Shown one piece after another: positions 1 through 64,000 of a DNA stretch of 64,000 nt (the first letter of the stretch is position 1; every line of letters begins with the position of its first letter). The DNA comes from Leucoraja ocellata (taxonomy: Eukaryota), in contig JAWMAR010000029.1 of the NCBI GenBank assembly GCA_036785375.1, positions 11,222,001-11,286,000 on the forward strand. Reading direction: 5' to 3'. The position numbers were made by a program.

Positions 1-3000
1 GGATTAATTTTTACTTGGAAACAATGTTTCCGGAGCTTGAGGCTGGAATTCCTGACAGCGTCTCCACTTCACAGGCAGTTGGATTGGGGCAGATAAGACC
101 TGGATTTTCTTTACGGAGATTTGCAAGGTTTTCATAATCGCCGTATCCTGTTGGATCATCATGATCAAACCACTGAGTTTTGCAGTTACCTGTGGAATGG
201 TAGAAATAGATTATGAACAACCATTTAGTCAAAGAATTGAGAATACCCGCAACATTTAATTGAATGGTTTACGGTATTTAGATATGTCTATCCATAACAG
301 TTCAGTTTTCCTTCCCGTGCCTACTTGCCCTTGAGATGTCATAGAGCCATTGTGAGATTCATAGAGCCATTTGGCCCACTGAACCCATAGAAACATATAA
401 ATTAGGTGCAGGAGGAGGCCATTCGGCCCTTTGAGCGTGCACCACCATTCAATATGATCATGGCTGATCATCCAACTCAGTATCCCGTACCTACCTTCTC
501 TCCATACCCCCTGATCCCCTTAGCCACAAGGGTCACCTCTAACTCCCTCTTAAATATAGCCAATGAACTGGCCTCAACTACCTTCTGTGGCAGAGAATTC
601 CAGAGATTCACCAGAGAATCCATGCAAACTCTGACCAACTATTTACACTAATTTGATATTCATCCATATGTTGTTTTCTCCCCCACTCTTTTATCAACTC
701 CTCTTACCACTCATGTCCAGTCTAGGGACAAATTATAGTGGGCACTTGGCTTACCAACCCACTCTTATAAAGTCATAGCACAGACACGTCCTTCAGCCCA
801 ATGTCTTCATGCCTACTAAAGTGTCTTATCTAAGCCAGACCCATTTGCCCATCCATGTCCCTGTTCATGTACTTTTTTCAGATGTTGGAAGAAATCAGAG
901 CACCAAGAAAACACGCATGGGGTTACAGGGAGAATGTAAAATATCCACACAGGCTGCACGCAAAGCCAGGATCAAAATTCTGGACCTTGTCCTTGGGACC
1001 TCGTCCTTGGGACCTCCCTCTGTAACCGGCTCCTGGACTTGCTGACTGGCAGACCACTGTTGGGTAGAATTGGTCCTAACATTTCCTCCCTCTAACCCTC
1101 AACACAGGTGACCCTCAGGGTTGTCTGACCCTTCACACTGATGTGACCTAGAAAGCTCAACAGTGTATTTACTTTCGTAGGCATCTGAGAAGATATGGCA
1201 TGCCCATGAGAATCCTGTTGAACTACTACAGATTTGCAATGGAAAGTATTTCGACGAGATGCGTCTCAGCCTGGCATGGCAACAACTCTACTCTTGACTG
1301 CTTGAAACTGCAGGAATTATAGTTATGCAAGATAGTCCATTATCAACAGCCCAGTCTATTAGCAGGAAGGCTCGAATCAAGGATATCTACAGCCCTGACC
1401 TCTCGTTTATCTTATGGGATAAGGTACTGGAGCTTGAAAGCAAGGATGTCCAGACTTAAGAACACTTTCTTCCCTATTAATACAAGTCTCCAACCAATCA
1501 CTTCTTTCATATCTCTTATTGGAGATACTGCTTTATACTCTTATTTTTATCTGTACCTCATTCATTTATTCCGTTATTGCAGCTTAATTATTTTTACACT
1601 ACAATTTTACACCATTCTGCTGTTTTGCACTCATCATCGTGTTTATTGTTGCATTTATCATTGCTGTTTACTCTGTGAACGTCATGAGAACAAATAATGT
1701 CATAGTATTTTGGTGCATACAACAATAAACTAATCTTAATTGGAATCTGAATCTGAATCTGGGAAGCTTGCACTGTGAGGCAATCACAGTTTCACAAATG
1801 TCATGATAAATACATTATTTCTCCTCTCAGTCATAGAAAACCAAAGGCATTGAAAAGAAACAGCATCCTGCGTAGTGTGTACTCCAGATTGTATGCCTGT
1901 GATTTAGATGTTTGATGTTTTGGTGATGGATGGACAGTGGATCAGTGCTTTGAATCATATAAATGGGACTGTCTCACAATGTTCCTGACATGCCCCCTGC
2001 TGGTTTGTAGTGATAGGATGCAGTAGGTGTAGTAAGTAACTACAATTGCTGGTTTAAACTGAAGATAGATTCAAAATGCTGGAGTAACTCAGCTGGACAG
2101 AAGGAAGGACAGAACTCTGGAAAGAAGGAATGGGTGACATTTCGGGTCGAGACCTTTCATCACCCATTCCTTCTCTCTAGTGATGATGCCTGTCCCTCTG
2201 AATTACTCCACCATTTTGTGTCTATCTTTGGTAGGATGGAGTAAGTTGCTTTCCTGCCATACCTTGTCTGTGAAATCTCCCCCTCTCCACCACCTGTGCC
2301 CTGTGGCTGTACATTGCTGCATTAAAGATCCAACTTAATTTGTTAAATCAGCTGTGCTGGAAGATGAATATTAATTGCCTGTTTAGCATTGTTGCCCATT
2401 GTAATGTTCACAAGTGTCTCATGGTACACTGGATAAATTATCATTCCTAAATGCAAATGTTTGGTCTGCGTTTTCCAACTCTTGAGCTGGCATGACCTCA
2501 ATATCCTGTGTTTCTACCATTCGACTCTGCAGTCAGAAAGTAATTCATTCATTATCTCAGATGTCCTCGTTGTACAACAGTGGATGAGGAGCTGGCGCTA
2601 TCTTTTCAAACGTAACGCAAACCTAGAGCTCCATTTGGTCTGATATTTTTCCTCCAAATGGAAGAACATATTCAATCAACTTGTACACATGTCTACTACT
2701 TACAGAATGATTCTGGGCAGATAAACCGGATTCTGTAATCTTCACATCGTCCATCTGTTTGCTCTGCATTCACACAAACAAATCCTGAAATAACATTGCA
2801 GCTGTTGAACACAAAATAGGAGATTGTTTAAAAAAAAGTCATTATGAATTTTGGCAATGGATAAAACAATTTATATTCTATGTAATAAAGTGGCAGAGAT
2901 GGAAATTTGCCTTTGGTCTCCAGTGCTGACCAGGTGCTGGACGATGAGCAATTGCCTCTCATACTCAGTTCCAATGACCTTGCATGTCAGCAGAATTCTC

Positions 3001-63000: not shown

Positions 63001-64000
63001 CAAGTACATGAGACCGAGTTCCAGCTCCCACCACCTTGTTCACTGTTCTGCCCATCACTTCACTTATTTCTTCTTGCCCCATATTTGCTGATGTTGGTGA
63101 CTGTTTCCTCTCACTGCTGCCATTGGTCCTGACCCCTTAACATCAATCGCCATCCCTCTCTCCTCAATAAAATCCCAACTTTATAAATTACCAGCCTGGT
63201 ACCATGTCCCAGAATTCCTACGAAATCCATGTCTAGTTTTCCTGGTCCTCCTCGTGACAATCCCACATTCTGCAATCCTGAATCATGCCTGGCAGAATAC
63301 TCAAATTACTCTTACGTGAGTCACTTTCCTCACGTGAACAAGTGATGTCAGAGGACCGGAGAAACGCAGAAGATACTCCTTTGTTCAAGAGAGGGGAAAA
63401 GATGATCACAGAAATGACAGGCCTTTACGATGAATTAACATCACACATGAAGTTTTTACGAGTACTCTAGTTACCTTCTAACAAATAAATCAGAATATCA
63501 GAAAAGAAAGTAAGAATTAGGAGCAGGAGTCAGAGACGACTTCCCATTCTACAATCCCTAGAGAAAAAGTTTCTAGTCTGAAGATGGATCCCAAATCGAA
63601 ACAGGACCTATTCATGATCTTGGAGATGATGCCTGATACGTTCTGTTATTCCAGCATTTTGTAATCCATATCTGCTGTAGTTTGTATTCCTAGTCTTTGC
63701 AATTTCTTCTCATGTGGCTAAATCACAATTTCTGTTACCTTCCCCATGAATCTGTTTCGCATTCCCTCCATGGCATGGACACATTTTGTTTCCTCAATAA
63801 GCTGATAACTACAAGCAACTCTTCAGGTTCAGTCGCACTGAAGCACCTATAATCTGTTATGCCAGTGTTTTAACTTAGTTATTATGTAGCGGACATTAAA
63901 ACATACTGTATGAAACTCATAAGAGCTTTCATATTACTGTTAACATTGCCCTCTTTATAATGGGAGGGATATACTCACCAGGAGGTTCGGTAACACCACC

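What the first reader, a model, noticed from the sequence alone, without database searches (positions are those of the whole stretch)
15..63999. Poly-CysD protein: at least 23 back-to-back mucin CysD/WxxW-type domains with almost no PTS spacer
Seen: all visible exons splice in frame into a 99-aa repeat with 8 invariant Cys, giving more than 2300 aa within this window, open at both ends. Known: gel-forming mucins MUC2, MUC5AC and MUC5B carry only a few CysD domains (2-9), separated by long PTS regions in large central exons, and CILP carries one WxxW domain. Here each domain is split by introns and joined to the next by only about 7 aa. Inference: a secreted, highly multivalent bead-on-string cross-linker or mucus/matrix component, possibly a lineage-specific family. 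I do not recognise a named gene with this architecture but cannot exclude an automated annotation.
Basis: partly seen in the sequence, partly recalled or inferred. Interest (0 to 1): 0.85.

Follow-up and report, generated by a model that had tools for sequence, protein, structure and literature searches.

The report
Skate CysD-only lateral-line mucin gene
The window is the inside of one very long skate gene that strings together dozens of mucin-type CysD domains; the same gene family was described in 2025 as a jelly (cupula) protein of the fish lateral line, so the finding is real but not new.

Summary
On the minus strand there are 24 exon-A, 23 exon-B and 30 linker-exon copies (178/175, 98 and 21 nt). 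Every visible splice site is AG/GT, lengths never vary and there are no in-frame stops. One A+B+C cassette is 297 nt = 99 codons with 8 Cys. The window holds 23 complete CysD domains plus the first half of a 24th (2327-2383 codons), open at both ends. Exon A matches Pfam Mucin2_WxxW positions 2-57 and exon B positions 59-88.

The architecture is not unnamed. Shark RefSeq proteins (signal peptide plus 18-21 CysD, nothing else) are called "si:dkey-205h13.2" or "mucin-5AC". Little-skate RefSeq fragments match the window at up to 100%. Ma et al. 2025 (PMC11765562) describe this CysD-only family (2-27 domains, 27 in a skate). They show that the zebrafish gene is expressed in neuromast support cells and is needed for full cupula length.

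Modestly new here:
- at least 31 domains in this gene;
- a recently amplified ~1.95 kb three-exon cassette;
- a 21-nt linker micro-exon found in batoid but not shark models;
- eight solo linker exons;
- no WxxW motif;
- fragmented automated gene models.

Function in skate is inferred, not shown. Interest is low to moderate.

The parts
63979..63999 (-). Linker exon C of a unit whose A and B exons lie upstream, outside the window. It shows that the gene continues 5' of the window.
62023..62791 (-). Unit 1: A 62791-62614, B 62506-62409, C 62043-62023
60071..60848 (-). Unit 2: A 60848-60671, B 60563-60466, C 60091-60071
58842..58862 (-). Solo linker exon (a unit whose A and B were deleted)
56875..57650 (-). 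Unit 3: A 57650-57473, B 57365-57268, C 56895-56875
55587..55607 (-). Solo linker exon
53618..54395 (-). Unit 4: A 54395-54218, B 54110-54013, C 53638-53618
50653..51423 (-). Unit 5: A 51423-51246, B 51138-51041, C 50673-50653
49646..49666 (-). Solo linker exon
47376..47396 (-). Solo linker exon
45404..46177 (-). Unit 6: A 46177-46000, B 45892-45795, C 45424-45404
43434..44212 (-). Unit 7: A 44212-44035, B 43927-43830, C 43454-43434
42139..42159 (-). Solo linker exon
40195..40963 (-). Unit 8: A 40963-40786, B 40678-40581, C 40215-40195
38245..39021 (-). Unit 9 (reference unit): A 39021-38844, B 38737-38640, C 38265-38245
36289..37066 (-). Unit 10: A 37066-36889, B 36781-36684, C 36309-36289
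34344..35114 (-). Unit 11: A 35114-34937, B 34829-34732, C 34364-34344
32375..33152 (-). Unit 12: A 33152-32975, B 32867-32770, C 32395-32375
29477..31885 (+). Retrotransposon insertion in the 3447-nt intron between units 12 and 13. It is an 802-codon open frame with a reverse-transcriptase domain and is not part of the gene product.
   Evidence: RVT_1, E = 5.8e-29
28150..28927 (-). Unit 13: A 28927-28750, B 28642-28545, C 28170-28150
26993..27013 (-). Solo linker exon
26387..26407 (-). Solo linker exon
23669..24439 (-). Unit 14: A 24439-24262, B 24154-24057, C 23689-23669
21709..22477 (-). Unit 15: A 22477-22300, B 22192-22095, C 21729-21709
19757..20535 (-). Unit 16: A 20535-20358, B 20250-20153, C 19777-19757
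18755..18775 (-). Solo linker exon
15559..17492 (-). Unit 17: A 17492-17315, B 17207-17110, C 15579-15559. The B-C intron is enlarged to 1530 nt by a reverse-transcriptase fragment (16490-16918, minus strand).
14249..15019 (-). Unit 18: A 15019-14842, B 14734-14637, C 14269-14249
12279..13057 (-). Unit 19: A 13057-12880, B 12772-12675, C 12299-12279
10668..11437 (-). Unit 20: A 11437-11260, B 11152-11055, C 10688-10668
8012..9917 (+). Retroelement remnant in the 3526-nt intron between units 20 and 21. The reverse-transcriptase frame is 8012-9085, with a second frame at 9297-9917. This is the G+C-rich stretch of the window.
   Evidence: RVT_1, E = 6.9e-07
6378..7141 (-). Unit 21: A 7141-6964, B 6855-6758, C 6398-6378 (the last unit with a linker exon)
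4336..5027 (-). Unit 22: A 5027-4850, B 4433-4336. No linker exon follows.
2704..3261 (-). Unit 23 (older, shark-like type): A' 3261-3087 (175 nt), B 2801-2704, no linker exon
15..189 (-). Unit 24: A' 189-15 (175 nt). Its B exon lies beyond the low end of the window, so the gene continues 3'.

Best explanation
The window is 64 kb from the middle of one gene on the minus strand of a skate genome. At protein level it is closest to Leucoraja erinacea RefSeq models. It is not human.

The gene belongs to the fish family of secreted 'CysD-only mucins' (zebrafish si:dkey-205h13.2, renamed muc5AC, which is a misleading name). Its product is a signal peptide followed by nothing but tandem CysD domains.

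In this window a ~1.95 kb three-exon cassette has been amplified recently. The cassette is A (N-terminal 58 residues of the domain), B (C-terminal 32 residues) and C (a 21-nt micro-exon coding a Thr/Pro linker, mostly GVTEPP). The amplification was partly in multi-unit blocks. It gives 21 cassette domains, followed by three domains without a linker. In the RefSeq fragment, 7 further older domains run to the C-terminus. That makes at least 31 CysD domains.

Shown here:
- exon structure, phases and intactness;
- domain identity and fold;
- relatives and their architecture;
- that the expansion is skate-specific.

Inferred mechanism:
- Each bead is a small disulfide-locked beta-sandwich (8 Cys, probably 4 internal disulfides).
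- It has an invariant acidic loop (W-F-D-R/H-D-N/D-P-x-G-x-G-D-Y-E). This loop aligns with the region of the MUC2 and MUC5B CysD domains; MUC2 CysD1 binds two Ca2+ ions.
- It carries one N-glycan sequon, and the linker has one likely O-glycan site.
- Secreted by lateral-line support cells, the long multivalent chain would knit the cupula (and possibly other sensory-organ jelly) into a hydrogel. It would do so through many weak, reversible CysD contacts with itself or with other matrix glycoproteins. The number of beads would set the gel's reach and stiffness.
- This is how engineered 12-CysD chains stiffen mucus, and it fits the short cupulae of zebrafish mutants.

The confidence given (0.75) is a blend. 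Identity as an internal part of a CysD-only secreted-protein gene of the described family is about 0.9. The cupula-matrix role in skate is about 0.5.
For: Structure of the locus:
- 24 A, 23 B and 30 C exon copies, all of invariant length, with AG/GT at every visible site and no stops.
- Junction codons are constant, with Cys at 23 of 23 B donors.
- Exons are more alike than introns: 94.6% and 96.1% against 87.4-92.1% mean pairwise identity.
- Exon lengths never vary, while B-C introns range from 359 to 375 nt.

Domain identity:
- Pfam Mucin2_WxxW matches exon A at positions 2-57 and exon B at positions 59-88, both above the cut-off.
- RefSeq protein P0010 is 100% identical to the window over 91 residues. 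Its model has both domains at mostly pLDDT above 90.
- The top 8 Foldseek PDB hits for that model are all mucin CysD domains. MUC5B 8oer has TM 0.75 and rmsd 1.9 A; the rest are MUC2 CysD1/CysD2 and MUC5AC CysD7.
- By sequence, P0010 hits MUC5B CysD at E = 1e-08.

Family:
- Shark proteins of 1930, 1865 and 1658 aa have a signal-peptide-like N-terminus plus 21, 20 and 18 CysD stretches and no other supported domain.
- Two of them are named si:dkey-205h13.2 by NCBI.
- Ma et al. 2025 describe the family, list skate and catshark members, and show neuromast support-cell expression, shorter cupulae (47.4 vs 38.2 um) and a slower startle response in the zebrafish mutant.

One gene, not many:
- L. erinacea RefSeq P0004 splices B-C-A and B-A' exactly as modelled here. 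It then continues through 7 more domains to a C-terminus without CK or VWD.
- P0010 begins and ends in intron read-through, and that part folds with pLDDT below 50.

Recent skate-specific expansion:
- All 22 cassette-type units plus Leucoraja d01 and d02 form one clade (97/84). It sits inside a batoid-only clade (99/96). C-terminal domains pair one-to-one between skate, electric ray and sharks.
- The longest self-matches are 95-97.7% identical and up to 5.9 kb long.

Mechanism by analogy:
- CysD is a beta-sandwich with two Ca2+ ions (Javitt 2020, PMC7599080, passages).
- A secreted chain of 12 CYS domains stiffens mucus and reduces mesh size (Demouveaux 2019, PMC6861317, passages).
Against: - No expression, transcript or protein data for any skate could be examined. 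One long transcript is inferred from phases and from RefSeq models whose evidence I cannot see.
- Orthology to the zebrafish gene rests on NCBI naming and on the BLAST table of Ma et al. In my own comparison, window exon A is 58-62% identical to Danio aesculapii si:dkey-205h13.2. That is no closer than to other teleost CysD-only proteins at 51-60%. Synteny cannot be tested because the window lies wholly inside the gene.
- Ma et al. did not see the tagged protein in the cupula (Discussion). Even in zebrafish, 'cupula component' is inferred from expression and phenotype.
- pN/pS between units is 0.52 (exon A) and 0.96 (exon B). Selection on individual copies is weak or the copies are too young to tell. 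Some copies may be dispensable.
- The W-x-x-W motif that Ma et al. call conserved is absent in 24 of 24 window copies and in all chondrichthyan models examined.
- The signal peptide is not in the window.
- Copy number in a long tandem array can be mis-assembled.
Confidence: 0.75

Rival explanations
1. Same architecture but a different job. This could be a paralogue or co-opted member used in skin or gut mucus, ampullary (electroreceptor) canal jelly, inner-ear cupulae or egg-case secretion, rather than in lateral-line neuromast cupulae.
For: - CysD-only proteins are a multi-gene group. Several different loci per species are named mucin-5AC-like, mucin-5B-like, CILP2 or WxxW domain-containing.
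- Sequence identity does not single out the zebrafish gene as the closest teleost relative.
- Function has been tested only in zebrafish.
- The batoid-specific expansion and linker hint at a lineage-specific demand.
Against: - NCBI assigns the si:dkey-205h13.2 name to the catshark and zebra-shark genes.
- Ma et al. list skate and catshark proteins as homologues of the zebrafish gene.
- My searches retrieved one long gene of this type per shark species.
Confidence: 0.25
2. The array is partly non-functional or inflated. Many units would be young duplicates that are skipped, decaying, or produced by mis-assembly of a shorter array, so the real protein has far fewer domains.
For: - pN/pS is close to 1 in exon B.
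- Eight units have already lost A and B.
- RefSeq could not build one model across the array and produced fragments.
- Retroelements sit in three introns.
Against: - 0 of 77 exon copies has a stop, a frameshift or a lost visible splice site, although introns differ by 8-13%.
- All 8 Cys and the acidic loop are invariant.
- No two long stretches are more than 97.7% identical, and the units carry private insertions. This is not what a collapsed or duplicated assembly looks like.
- A. radiata is reported with 27 domains in one model.
Confidence: 0.12
3. It is the central part of a conventional gel-forming mucin (MUC5AC or MUC2 type), or a CILP orthologue, as some automated names suggest.
For: Automated names such as 'mucin-5AC' and 'cartilage intermediate layer protein 1-like' are attached to relatives. 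The domain is the one found in MUC2, MUC5AC, MUC5B and CILP.
Against: - Full-length shark models start with a signal peptide and end after the last CysD. No VWD, C8, TIL, VWC or CK match was found.
- The skate RefSeq fragment ends the same way.
- There is no PTS region, and the linkers are 6-7 residues.
- The models named CILP1 or CILP1-like that I examined (P0012, P0014; 142-163 aa) are short CysD fragments. One of them, P0014, begins with a signal-peptide-like stretch.
Confidence: 0.03

Closest known systems
Zebrafish si:dkey-205h13.2 / 'muc5AC' (fish CysD-only Mucin-5AC family; Ma et al. 2025, Int J Mol Sci 26:708, PMC11765562)
   Same: A secreted protein made only of tandem CysD domains, with no VWD, VWC, CK or long PTS. 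The paper's Table 1 lists skate (27 CysD) and catshark (19) members.
   Different: - Zebrafish has 6 domains. This gene has at least 31.
- Teleost members keep W-x-x-W (for example the pipefish protein P0021). The skate and shark copies do not.
- The skate cassette has a separate 21-nt linker exon.
- Expression and function are known only for zebrafish.
Shark orthologues (Mustelus asterias LOC144510017, Scyliorhinus canicula and Stegostoma tigrinum 'si:dkey-205h13.2'; RefSeq automated models)
   Same: 72-78% identity to window exon A. Signal peptide plus 18-21 CysD domains only. The last domains are positionally orthologous to those of the skate RefSeq fragment.
   Different: The shark models have no linker exon at all. 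The spacing from the last conserved Cys to the next Trp is 10 residues in 55 of 56 junctions and 12 in one. They also lack the skate-type cassette expansion.
Batoid models: Pristis pectinata LOC127583413, Narcine bancroftii 'mucin-5AC, partial', Amblyraja radiata XP_032903886 (27 CysD, from the paper only)
   Same: They share N-terminal-type domains followed by the same kind of 6-7 residue Thr/Pro linker. The sawfish model even has three linkers in a row, which matches the solo linker exons here. These domains cluster with the window's cassette units.
   Different: Far fewer cassette copies appear in the models seen: 3 in sawfish and 1 in the electric ray. The A. radiata 27-domain protein was not retrievable here, so I could not compare it.
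CysD domains of gel-forming mucins MUC2, MUC5AC and MUC5B (PDB 6tm6, 8ov0, 8oer)
   Same: Same Pfam family and same fold (TM 0.65-0.75 to the solved domains). The acidic loop and most Cys are conserved.
   Different: In those mucins, 2-9 CysD domains are scattered in huge PTS regions between VWD assemblies and a CK domain. Here there are only CysD domains, 25-28% identical to the human ones, with no W-x-x-W motif. Each has 8 Cys; I recall 10 for mucin CysD, but that number comes from no call.
Engineered rCYSx12 (12 consecutive mucin CYS domains; Gouyer 2015, Demouveaux 2019) and Oikopleura oikosin 1 (13 CYS domains)
   Same: Chains made only of CysD domains that act in a gel. rCYSx12 stiffens mucus and shrinks its mesh. 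Oikosin 1 is a component of the mucous 'house' (PMC6861317, passages).
   Different: One is synthetic and built from a human mucin domain. The other is a tunicate protein. No orthology is implied, and the mode of contact is unknown in all three.

Membership tests
Fish CysD-only 'Mucin-5AC' family (si:dkey-205h13.2; Ma et al. 2025) | The protein is built only of tandem CysD (Mucin2_WxxW) domains. | tested here: met
   All 24 A and 23 B exons are CysD halves. The only other coding pieces are 21-nt linkers. Relatives show only this domain.
Fish CysD-only 'Mucin-5AC' family (si:dkey-205h13.2; Ma et al. 2025) | N-terminal signal peptide, no transmembrane segment (secreted). | not testable with these tools
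   The 5' end lies outside the window, and no match to orthologue N-termini was found in the window. Shark, sawfish and Amblyraja models start with a hydrophobic leader.
Fish CysD-only 'Mucin-5AC' family (si:dkey-205h13.2; Ma et al. 2025) | Absence of VWD, VWC and CK domains and of PTS regions between the CysD domains. | tested here: met
   None is present in the window. None is present in the full-length shark models or in the C-terminal skate RefSeq fragment. The gene's own 5' end remains unseen.
Fish CysD-only 'Mucin-5AC' family (si:dkey-205h13.2; Ma et al. 2025) | Orthology to the zebrafish gene. | tested here: inconclusive
   NCBI names two shark orthologues si:dkey-205h13.2, and the paper lists skate and catshark homologues. 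Window exon identity to Danio aesculapii P0200 is 58-62%, not better than to other teleost CysD-only proteins. Synteny is not testable.
Fish CysD-only 'Mucin-5AC' family (si:dkey-205h13.2; Ma et al. 2025) | Conserved W-x-x-W motif (as stated in the paper). | tested here: not met
   0 of 24 exon-A copies have it. There are 0 occurrences in the shark and ray models P0001-P0012 and P0014. The first Trp is replaced, mostly by Lys.
Fish CysD-only 'Mucin-5AC' family (si:dkey-205h13.2; Ma et al. 2025) | Expression in neuromast support cells and a role in cupula growth. | not testable with these tools
   No skate expression data were available. This has been shown only in zebrafish.
CysD domain (Pfam PF13330 Mucin2_WxxW) | Profile match above the curated cut-off. 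| tested here: met
   Exon A scores 39.6 bits and exon B 31.4 bits against a cut-off of 22.4. Together they cover profile positions 2-88 of 88.
CysD domain (Pfam PF13330 Mucin2_WxxW) | CysD beta-sandwich fold. | tested here: met
   This was tested on public RefSeq protein P0010 (part of it identical to the window), not on a joined model of my own. The domains have pLDDT mostly above 90. The top 8 PDB fold matches are mucin CysD domains.
CysD domain (Pfam PF13330 Mucin2_WxxW) | Calcium-binding acidic loop. | tested here: inconclusive
   The motif W-F-D-R/H-D-N/D-P-x-G-x-G-D-Y-E is present in 24 of 24 copies and aligns with the corresponding MUC2 and MUC5B region. The ligand residues are given only in a supplementary figure that I could not see, and binding itself was not tested.
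Gel-forming mucins (MUC2 / MUC5AC / MUC5B) | N-terminal VWD-C8-TIL assemblies, C-terminal VWD/VWC/CK, and a large central PTS region. | tested here: not met
   These are absent from the window and from the full-length orthologue models. Linkers are 6-7 residues. The name 'mucin-5AC' is an automated label based on domain similarity.
CILP / CILP2 | A single WxxW domain together with TSP1, Ig and CILP-specific regions (recalled, not taken from a call). | tested here: not met
   Only CysD domains were found. The 'CILP1' and 'CILP1-like' models P0012 and P0014 (142-163 aa) are short CysD fragments.

The most novel reading that the evidence does not exclude
This skate locus may encode the longest natural CysD-only chain known, with at least 31-33 domains. 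That compares with 27 reported for a skate and 21 for the largest model I could retrieve.

The chain would have been built by very recent amplification of a three-exon cassette. The cassette includes a phase-symmetric 21-nt Thr/Pro linker micro-exon seen in batoid but not shark models.

The eight solo linker exons could be spliced in or out without changing frame. That would give a simple genomic or splicing dial for spacer length (7, 14 or 21 residues) and bead number. It may be an adaptation that tunes the mechanics of canal-neuromast cupulae, or of ampullary jelly, in rays and skates.
Probability: 0.3. Interest if true: 0.45.

Novelty: already known. Interest (0 to 1): 0.3.

Why it matters
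The cupula that couples water motion to lateral-line hair cells is poorly defined at the molecular level. This gene family is its first candidate structural protein.

The skate locus adds three things:
- It shows how far the design can be stretched: dozens of near-identical disulfide-locked beads joined by 7-residue linkers.
- It gives the exon logic by which copy number and spacing change.
- It shows that automated annotation splits the gene into 'uncharacterized' fragments, so comparative counts of CysD number (2-27 in the paper) are probably underestimates for batoids.

It is also a natural counterpart of the engineered poly-CysD chains used to stiffen mucus. None of this changes the basic picture, which is already published.

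Tried and rejected
- **Homodimer test.** I ran a prediction of two copies of one skate CysD domain plus linker (residues 33-131 of RefSeq P0010). The verdict was 'no answer' (score 0.00, mark 0.32). It is neither for nor against self-association.
- **Exon A alone against PDB sequences.** Only a weak MUC5B hit came back (E = 0.16), with chance-level xanthan lyase hits. 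The public two-domain protein P0010 gave the clear result instead.
- **Tandem Repeats Finder.** It returned 0 rows because its longest period (500) is below the 1.95 kb unit. The periodicity was taken from the exon table and self-BLAST.
- **Rfam.** No RNA family was found in the window.
- **Plus-strand regex hits.** The 23 plus-strand hits are a repeated piece of the C-to-A intron read in another frame, not exons. Two minus-strand regex hits (2213, 3944) were also spurious.
- **Names for unnamed cluster representatives.** Names for four of them came instead. P0016 stayed unnamed.
- **The 27-domain Amblyraja protein.** It did not come up in the 1061-3378 aa search, so the comparison rests on the paper's table.
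- **eLife paper PMC7806267.** It is listed as holding the gene name, but has no occurrence in the main text held.
- **Ampullae of Lorenzini literature.** A search and passages of PMC8379299 gave no protein-level link to this family.
- **Literature searches on the family.** Searches found only Ma et al. 2025 describing it.
- **Readings rejected.** A conventional mucin, CILP, and separate small genes were all rejected (see the rival explanations).
Exons were searched one by one.
  - Genome contigs holds only bacteria and archaea and was not used.
These include those of Ma et al. and Figure S8 of Javitt et al., which gives the Ca2+ ligands.

Full report
**1. What is in the window**

The window has no N and about 40-45% G+C. 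One richer stretch lies at 8-12 kb. Reading the low end and two full units showed that the coding strand is the minus strand. Each repeat consists of three exons:
- Exon A begins G-N-C-K-T-x-W-F-D-R-D-N-P.
- Exon B begins C-N-V-S-T-G-F-F-C and ends in C-P-D-S-F.
- Exon C is a micro-exon coding G-V-T-E-P-P.

In the reference unit these are 178, 98 and 21 nt, which sum to 297 nt or 99 codons.

BLASTN with each exon plus 30-nt flanks found 24, 23 and 30 copies, all on the minus strand. Mapping the boundaries gave the following:
- 22 A exons are exactly 178 nt.
- The two A exons at the low end are 175 nt, with an AG acceptor 3 nt further in.
- All 23 B exons are 98 nt.
- All 30 C exons are 21 nt.
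- AG and GT are present at every site that is visible. The acceptor of the topmost C exon falls off the window.
- There are no in-frame stops.

Phases are the same in every unit, so any A-B-C or A-B series stays in frame. The exon-like sequence adds up to 7150 nt (2383 codons), or 2327 codons without the eight extra linker exons. The finding's limits, 15 and 63999, are exon ends. I take the sequence to be from a skate, not human.

**2. What the repeat is**

Each exon was searched on its own.
- Exon A matches Pfam Mucin2_WxxW positions 2-57 (E = 8.5e-10).
- Exon B matches positions 59-88 (E = 3.1e-07).
- Both are above the curated cut-off, and the two divergent low-end units behave the same way.

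So A plus B is one CysD domain split by a ~107-nt intron, and C is a linker.

Each unit has 8 Cys: 3 in A, 4 in B, and one from the codon split at the B donor, in 23 of 23 cases. Other per-exon features:
- The acidic loop W-F-D-R/H-D-N/D-P-x-G-x-G-D-Y-E is present in 24 of 24 copies.
- An N-x-S/T sequon is present in 22 of 23 B exons.
- The W-x-x-W motif that names the Pfam family is absent in 24 of 24 copies.

**3. Relatives and what is already known**

A search with exon A against longer proteins returned 15 hits. The main ones were:
- Mustelus asterias LOC144510017 (1930 aa).
- Scyliorhinus canicula and Stegostoma tigrinum 'si:dkey-205h13.2' (1865 and 1658 aa).
- Two Leucoraja erinacea models: LOC129711657 (1037 aa, 95% identity) and LOC129711659 (246 aa, 98%).
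- Several 'mucin-5AC' or 'CILP1-like' models from other sharks and rays.

The shark proteins are a hydrophobic leader followed by 21, 20 and 18 CysD stretches and nothing else that passes on its own.

The little-skate models match the window at up to 100% over 91 residues, including intron read-through. The window is therefore this species or a very close relative.
- LOC129711657 starts at an internal Met in a B exon near 11.1 kb. It follows the B-C-A and B-A' junctions I inferred. It then continues with 7 more domains to a C-terminus without CK or VWD.
- LOC129711659 starts and stops in intron read-through. That part is modelled with pLDDT below 50.

Automated annotation has thus cut one gene into pieces.

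The gene name led to Ma et al. 2025 (PMC11765562). I read its abstract, sections 2.1, 2.2 and 3, figure legends and Table 1. It reports the following:
- The family is defined as secreted proteins of 2-27 CysD domains in cartilaginous and bony fishes.
- Amblyraja radiata has 27 CysD and the catshark has 19.
- The zebrafish gene (6 CysD) is expressed in neuromast support cells.
- The zebrafish knockout has shorter cupulae and a slower startle response.

Four literature searches found no other paper on the family.

A further protein search shows that CysD-only proteins are annotated in many teleosts, sharks, rays, amphibians, lizards, amphioxus, tunicates and a limpet. An exhaustive profile-free scan of 1.84 billion representatives gave 470 hits at E <= 0.001. 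The most domain-rich representative had 18 stretches.

**4. Fold**

The public two-domain protein P0010, aligned with 27 relatives, was modelled at mean pLDDT 80. Both domains are mostly above 90. Its eight best PDB fold matches are all mucin CysD domains: MUC5B 8oer (TM 0.75, rmsd 1.9 A), MUC2 CysD1 and CysD2, and MUC5AC CysD7. By sequence it hits MUC5B CysD at E = 1e-08.

**5. How the array arose**

Nine of the 23 distances between successive A exons fall between 1942 and 1965 nt. Longer distances come from two sources:
- Retroelement insertions with reverse-transcriptase frames in three introns.
- Eight 'solo linker' units. Here a deletion removed A, B and the flanking intron, with at least four breakpoint classes.

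Self-comparison shows multi-unit duplications up to 5.9 kb. Nothing long is above 97.7% identity. This argues against a trivially duplicated assembly.

Exons are more similar than introns: 94.6% and 96.1% against 87.4-92.1%. However, pN/pS is only 0.52 in exon A and 0.96 in exon B, so constraint on individual copies is weak or too recent to measure.

In a tree of 116 exon-A-equivalent segments:
- All 22 cassette units plus the two matching RefSeq domains form one clade (97/84).
- That clade sits inside a batoid-only clade with the first domains of the Amblyraja, Narcine and Pristis models (99/96).
- The C-terminal domains pair one-to-one among skate, electric ray and sharks.
- The tree has few columns and many unresolved forks.

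The linker also appears in the batoid models but not the shark ones. Sawfish and electric-ray models have the same kind of 6-7 residue Thr/Pro spacer, and the sawfish model has three in a row. The shark models have none.

Counting 24 domains here and 7 further ones in the RefSeq fragment gives at least 31. The leading C exon and the missing N-terminus imply more. No CysD-only protein above 1930 aa was retrievable for comparison.

**6. How it probably works**

Shown: architecture, fold, conservation of Cys and of the acidic loop, and secreted orthologues.

Inferred:
- The beads are Ca2+-binding, disulfide-locked modules, as in MUC2 CysD1 (beta-sandwich, two Ca2+; PMC7599080, passages).
- The chain acts as a multivalent cross-linker or scaffold of a sensory-organ hydrogel.
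- This fits the way a secreted chain of 12 CYS domains stiffens mucus (PMC6861317, passages).
- It also fits the zebrafish phenotype.

Where the skate gene is expressed is unknown. Orthology to the zebrafish gene is supported by naming and by the paper, but not resolved by my identity comparison.

**7. Verdict**

The architecture is already in the literature and in RefSeq. The local details are incremental: copy number, the cassette with a linker micro-exon, solo linker exons, loss of W-x-x-W, and broken gene models.

Left unchecked:
- flanking sequence;
- transcripts;
- supplementary files (closed);
- the closed viral and metagenome collections.

Noticed in passing
window 29477-31885 (+): An 802-codon open frame with a reverse-transcriptase domain (RVT_1, E = 5.8e-29). 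It is a LINE-like retrotransposon inserted antisense in the intron between units 12 and 13. The frame is long and uninterrupted, so the insertion may be young.
   Followed up: partly
window 8012-9917 (+): Two adjacent open frames (357 and 206 codons) in the G+C-rich stretch. The first has a weak RVT_1 match (E = 6.9e-07). From recall, the second looks like a GIY-YIG-type nuclease tail, as in Penelope-like elements. Pfam gave no hit for it.
   Followed up: partly
window 15726-16918 (-): A reverse-transcriptase fragment (16490-16918) next to a low-complexity Ser/Pro/Leu-rich frame (15726-16331). Together they enlarge the B-C intron of unit 17 to 1530 nt.
   Followed up: partly
window 58842-58862, 55587-55607, 49646-49666, 47376-47396, 42139-42159, 26993-27013, 26387-26407, 18755-18775 (-): Eight intact 21-nt linker exons stand alone, because their unit lost exons A and B by deletion (at least four breakpoint classes). 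They are phase-symmetric, so they could be included to give 14- or 21-residue spacers. A sawfish RefSeq model contains such a triple linker.
   Followed up: yes
RefSeq models P0004 and P0010 (Leucoraja erinacea LOC129711657 and LOC129711659) against window 15-13154: The automated annotation splits this one gene into separate 'uncharacterized' models. One starts at an internal Met in a B exon. The other starts and ends in intron read-through. The Amblyraja 'CILP1-like' model P0014 (163 aa) looks like the detached signal-peptide end of the same gene.
   Followed up: partly
window, intron between exon C and the next exon A (e.g. 37981, 36036; + strand): A conserved intronic stretch repeats in nearly every unit. 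When read on the plus strand it gives a stop-free peptide-like frame that matched my first Trp-motif regex 23 times. It is an artefact of repeat conservation, not an exon.
   Followed up: yes
protein P0016 (861 aa, unnamed representative): A relative with a signal peptide and 7 nearly identical CysD domains separated by about 30-residue Thr/Pro/Ser-rich spacers. This shows that the family can also carry real PTS-like linkers. Its source organism is unknown to me.
   Followed up: no
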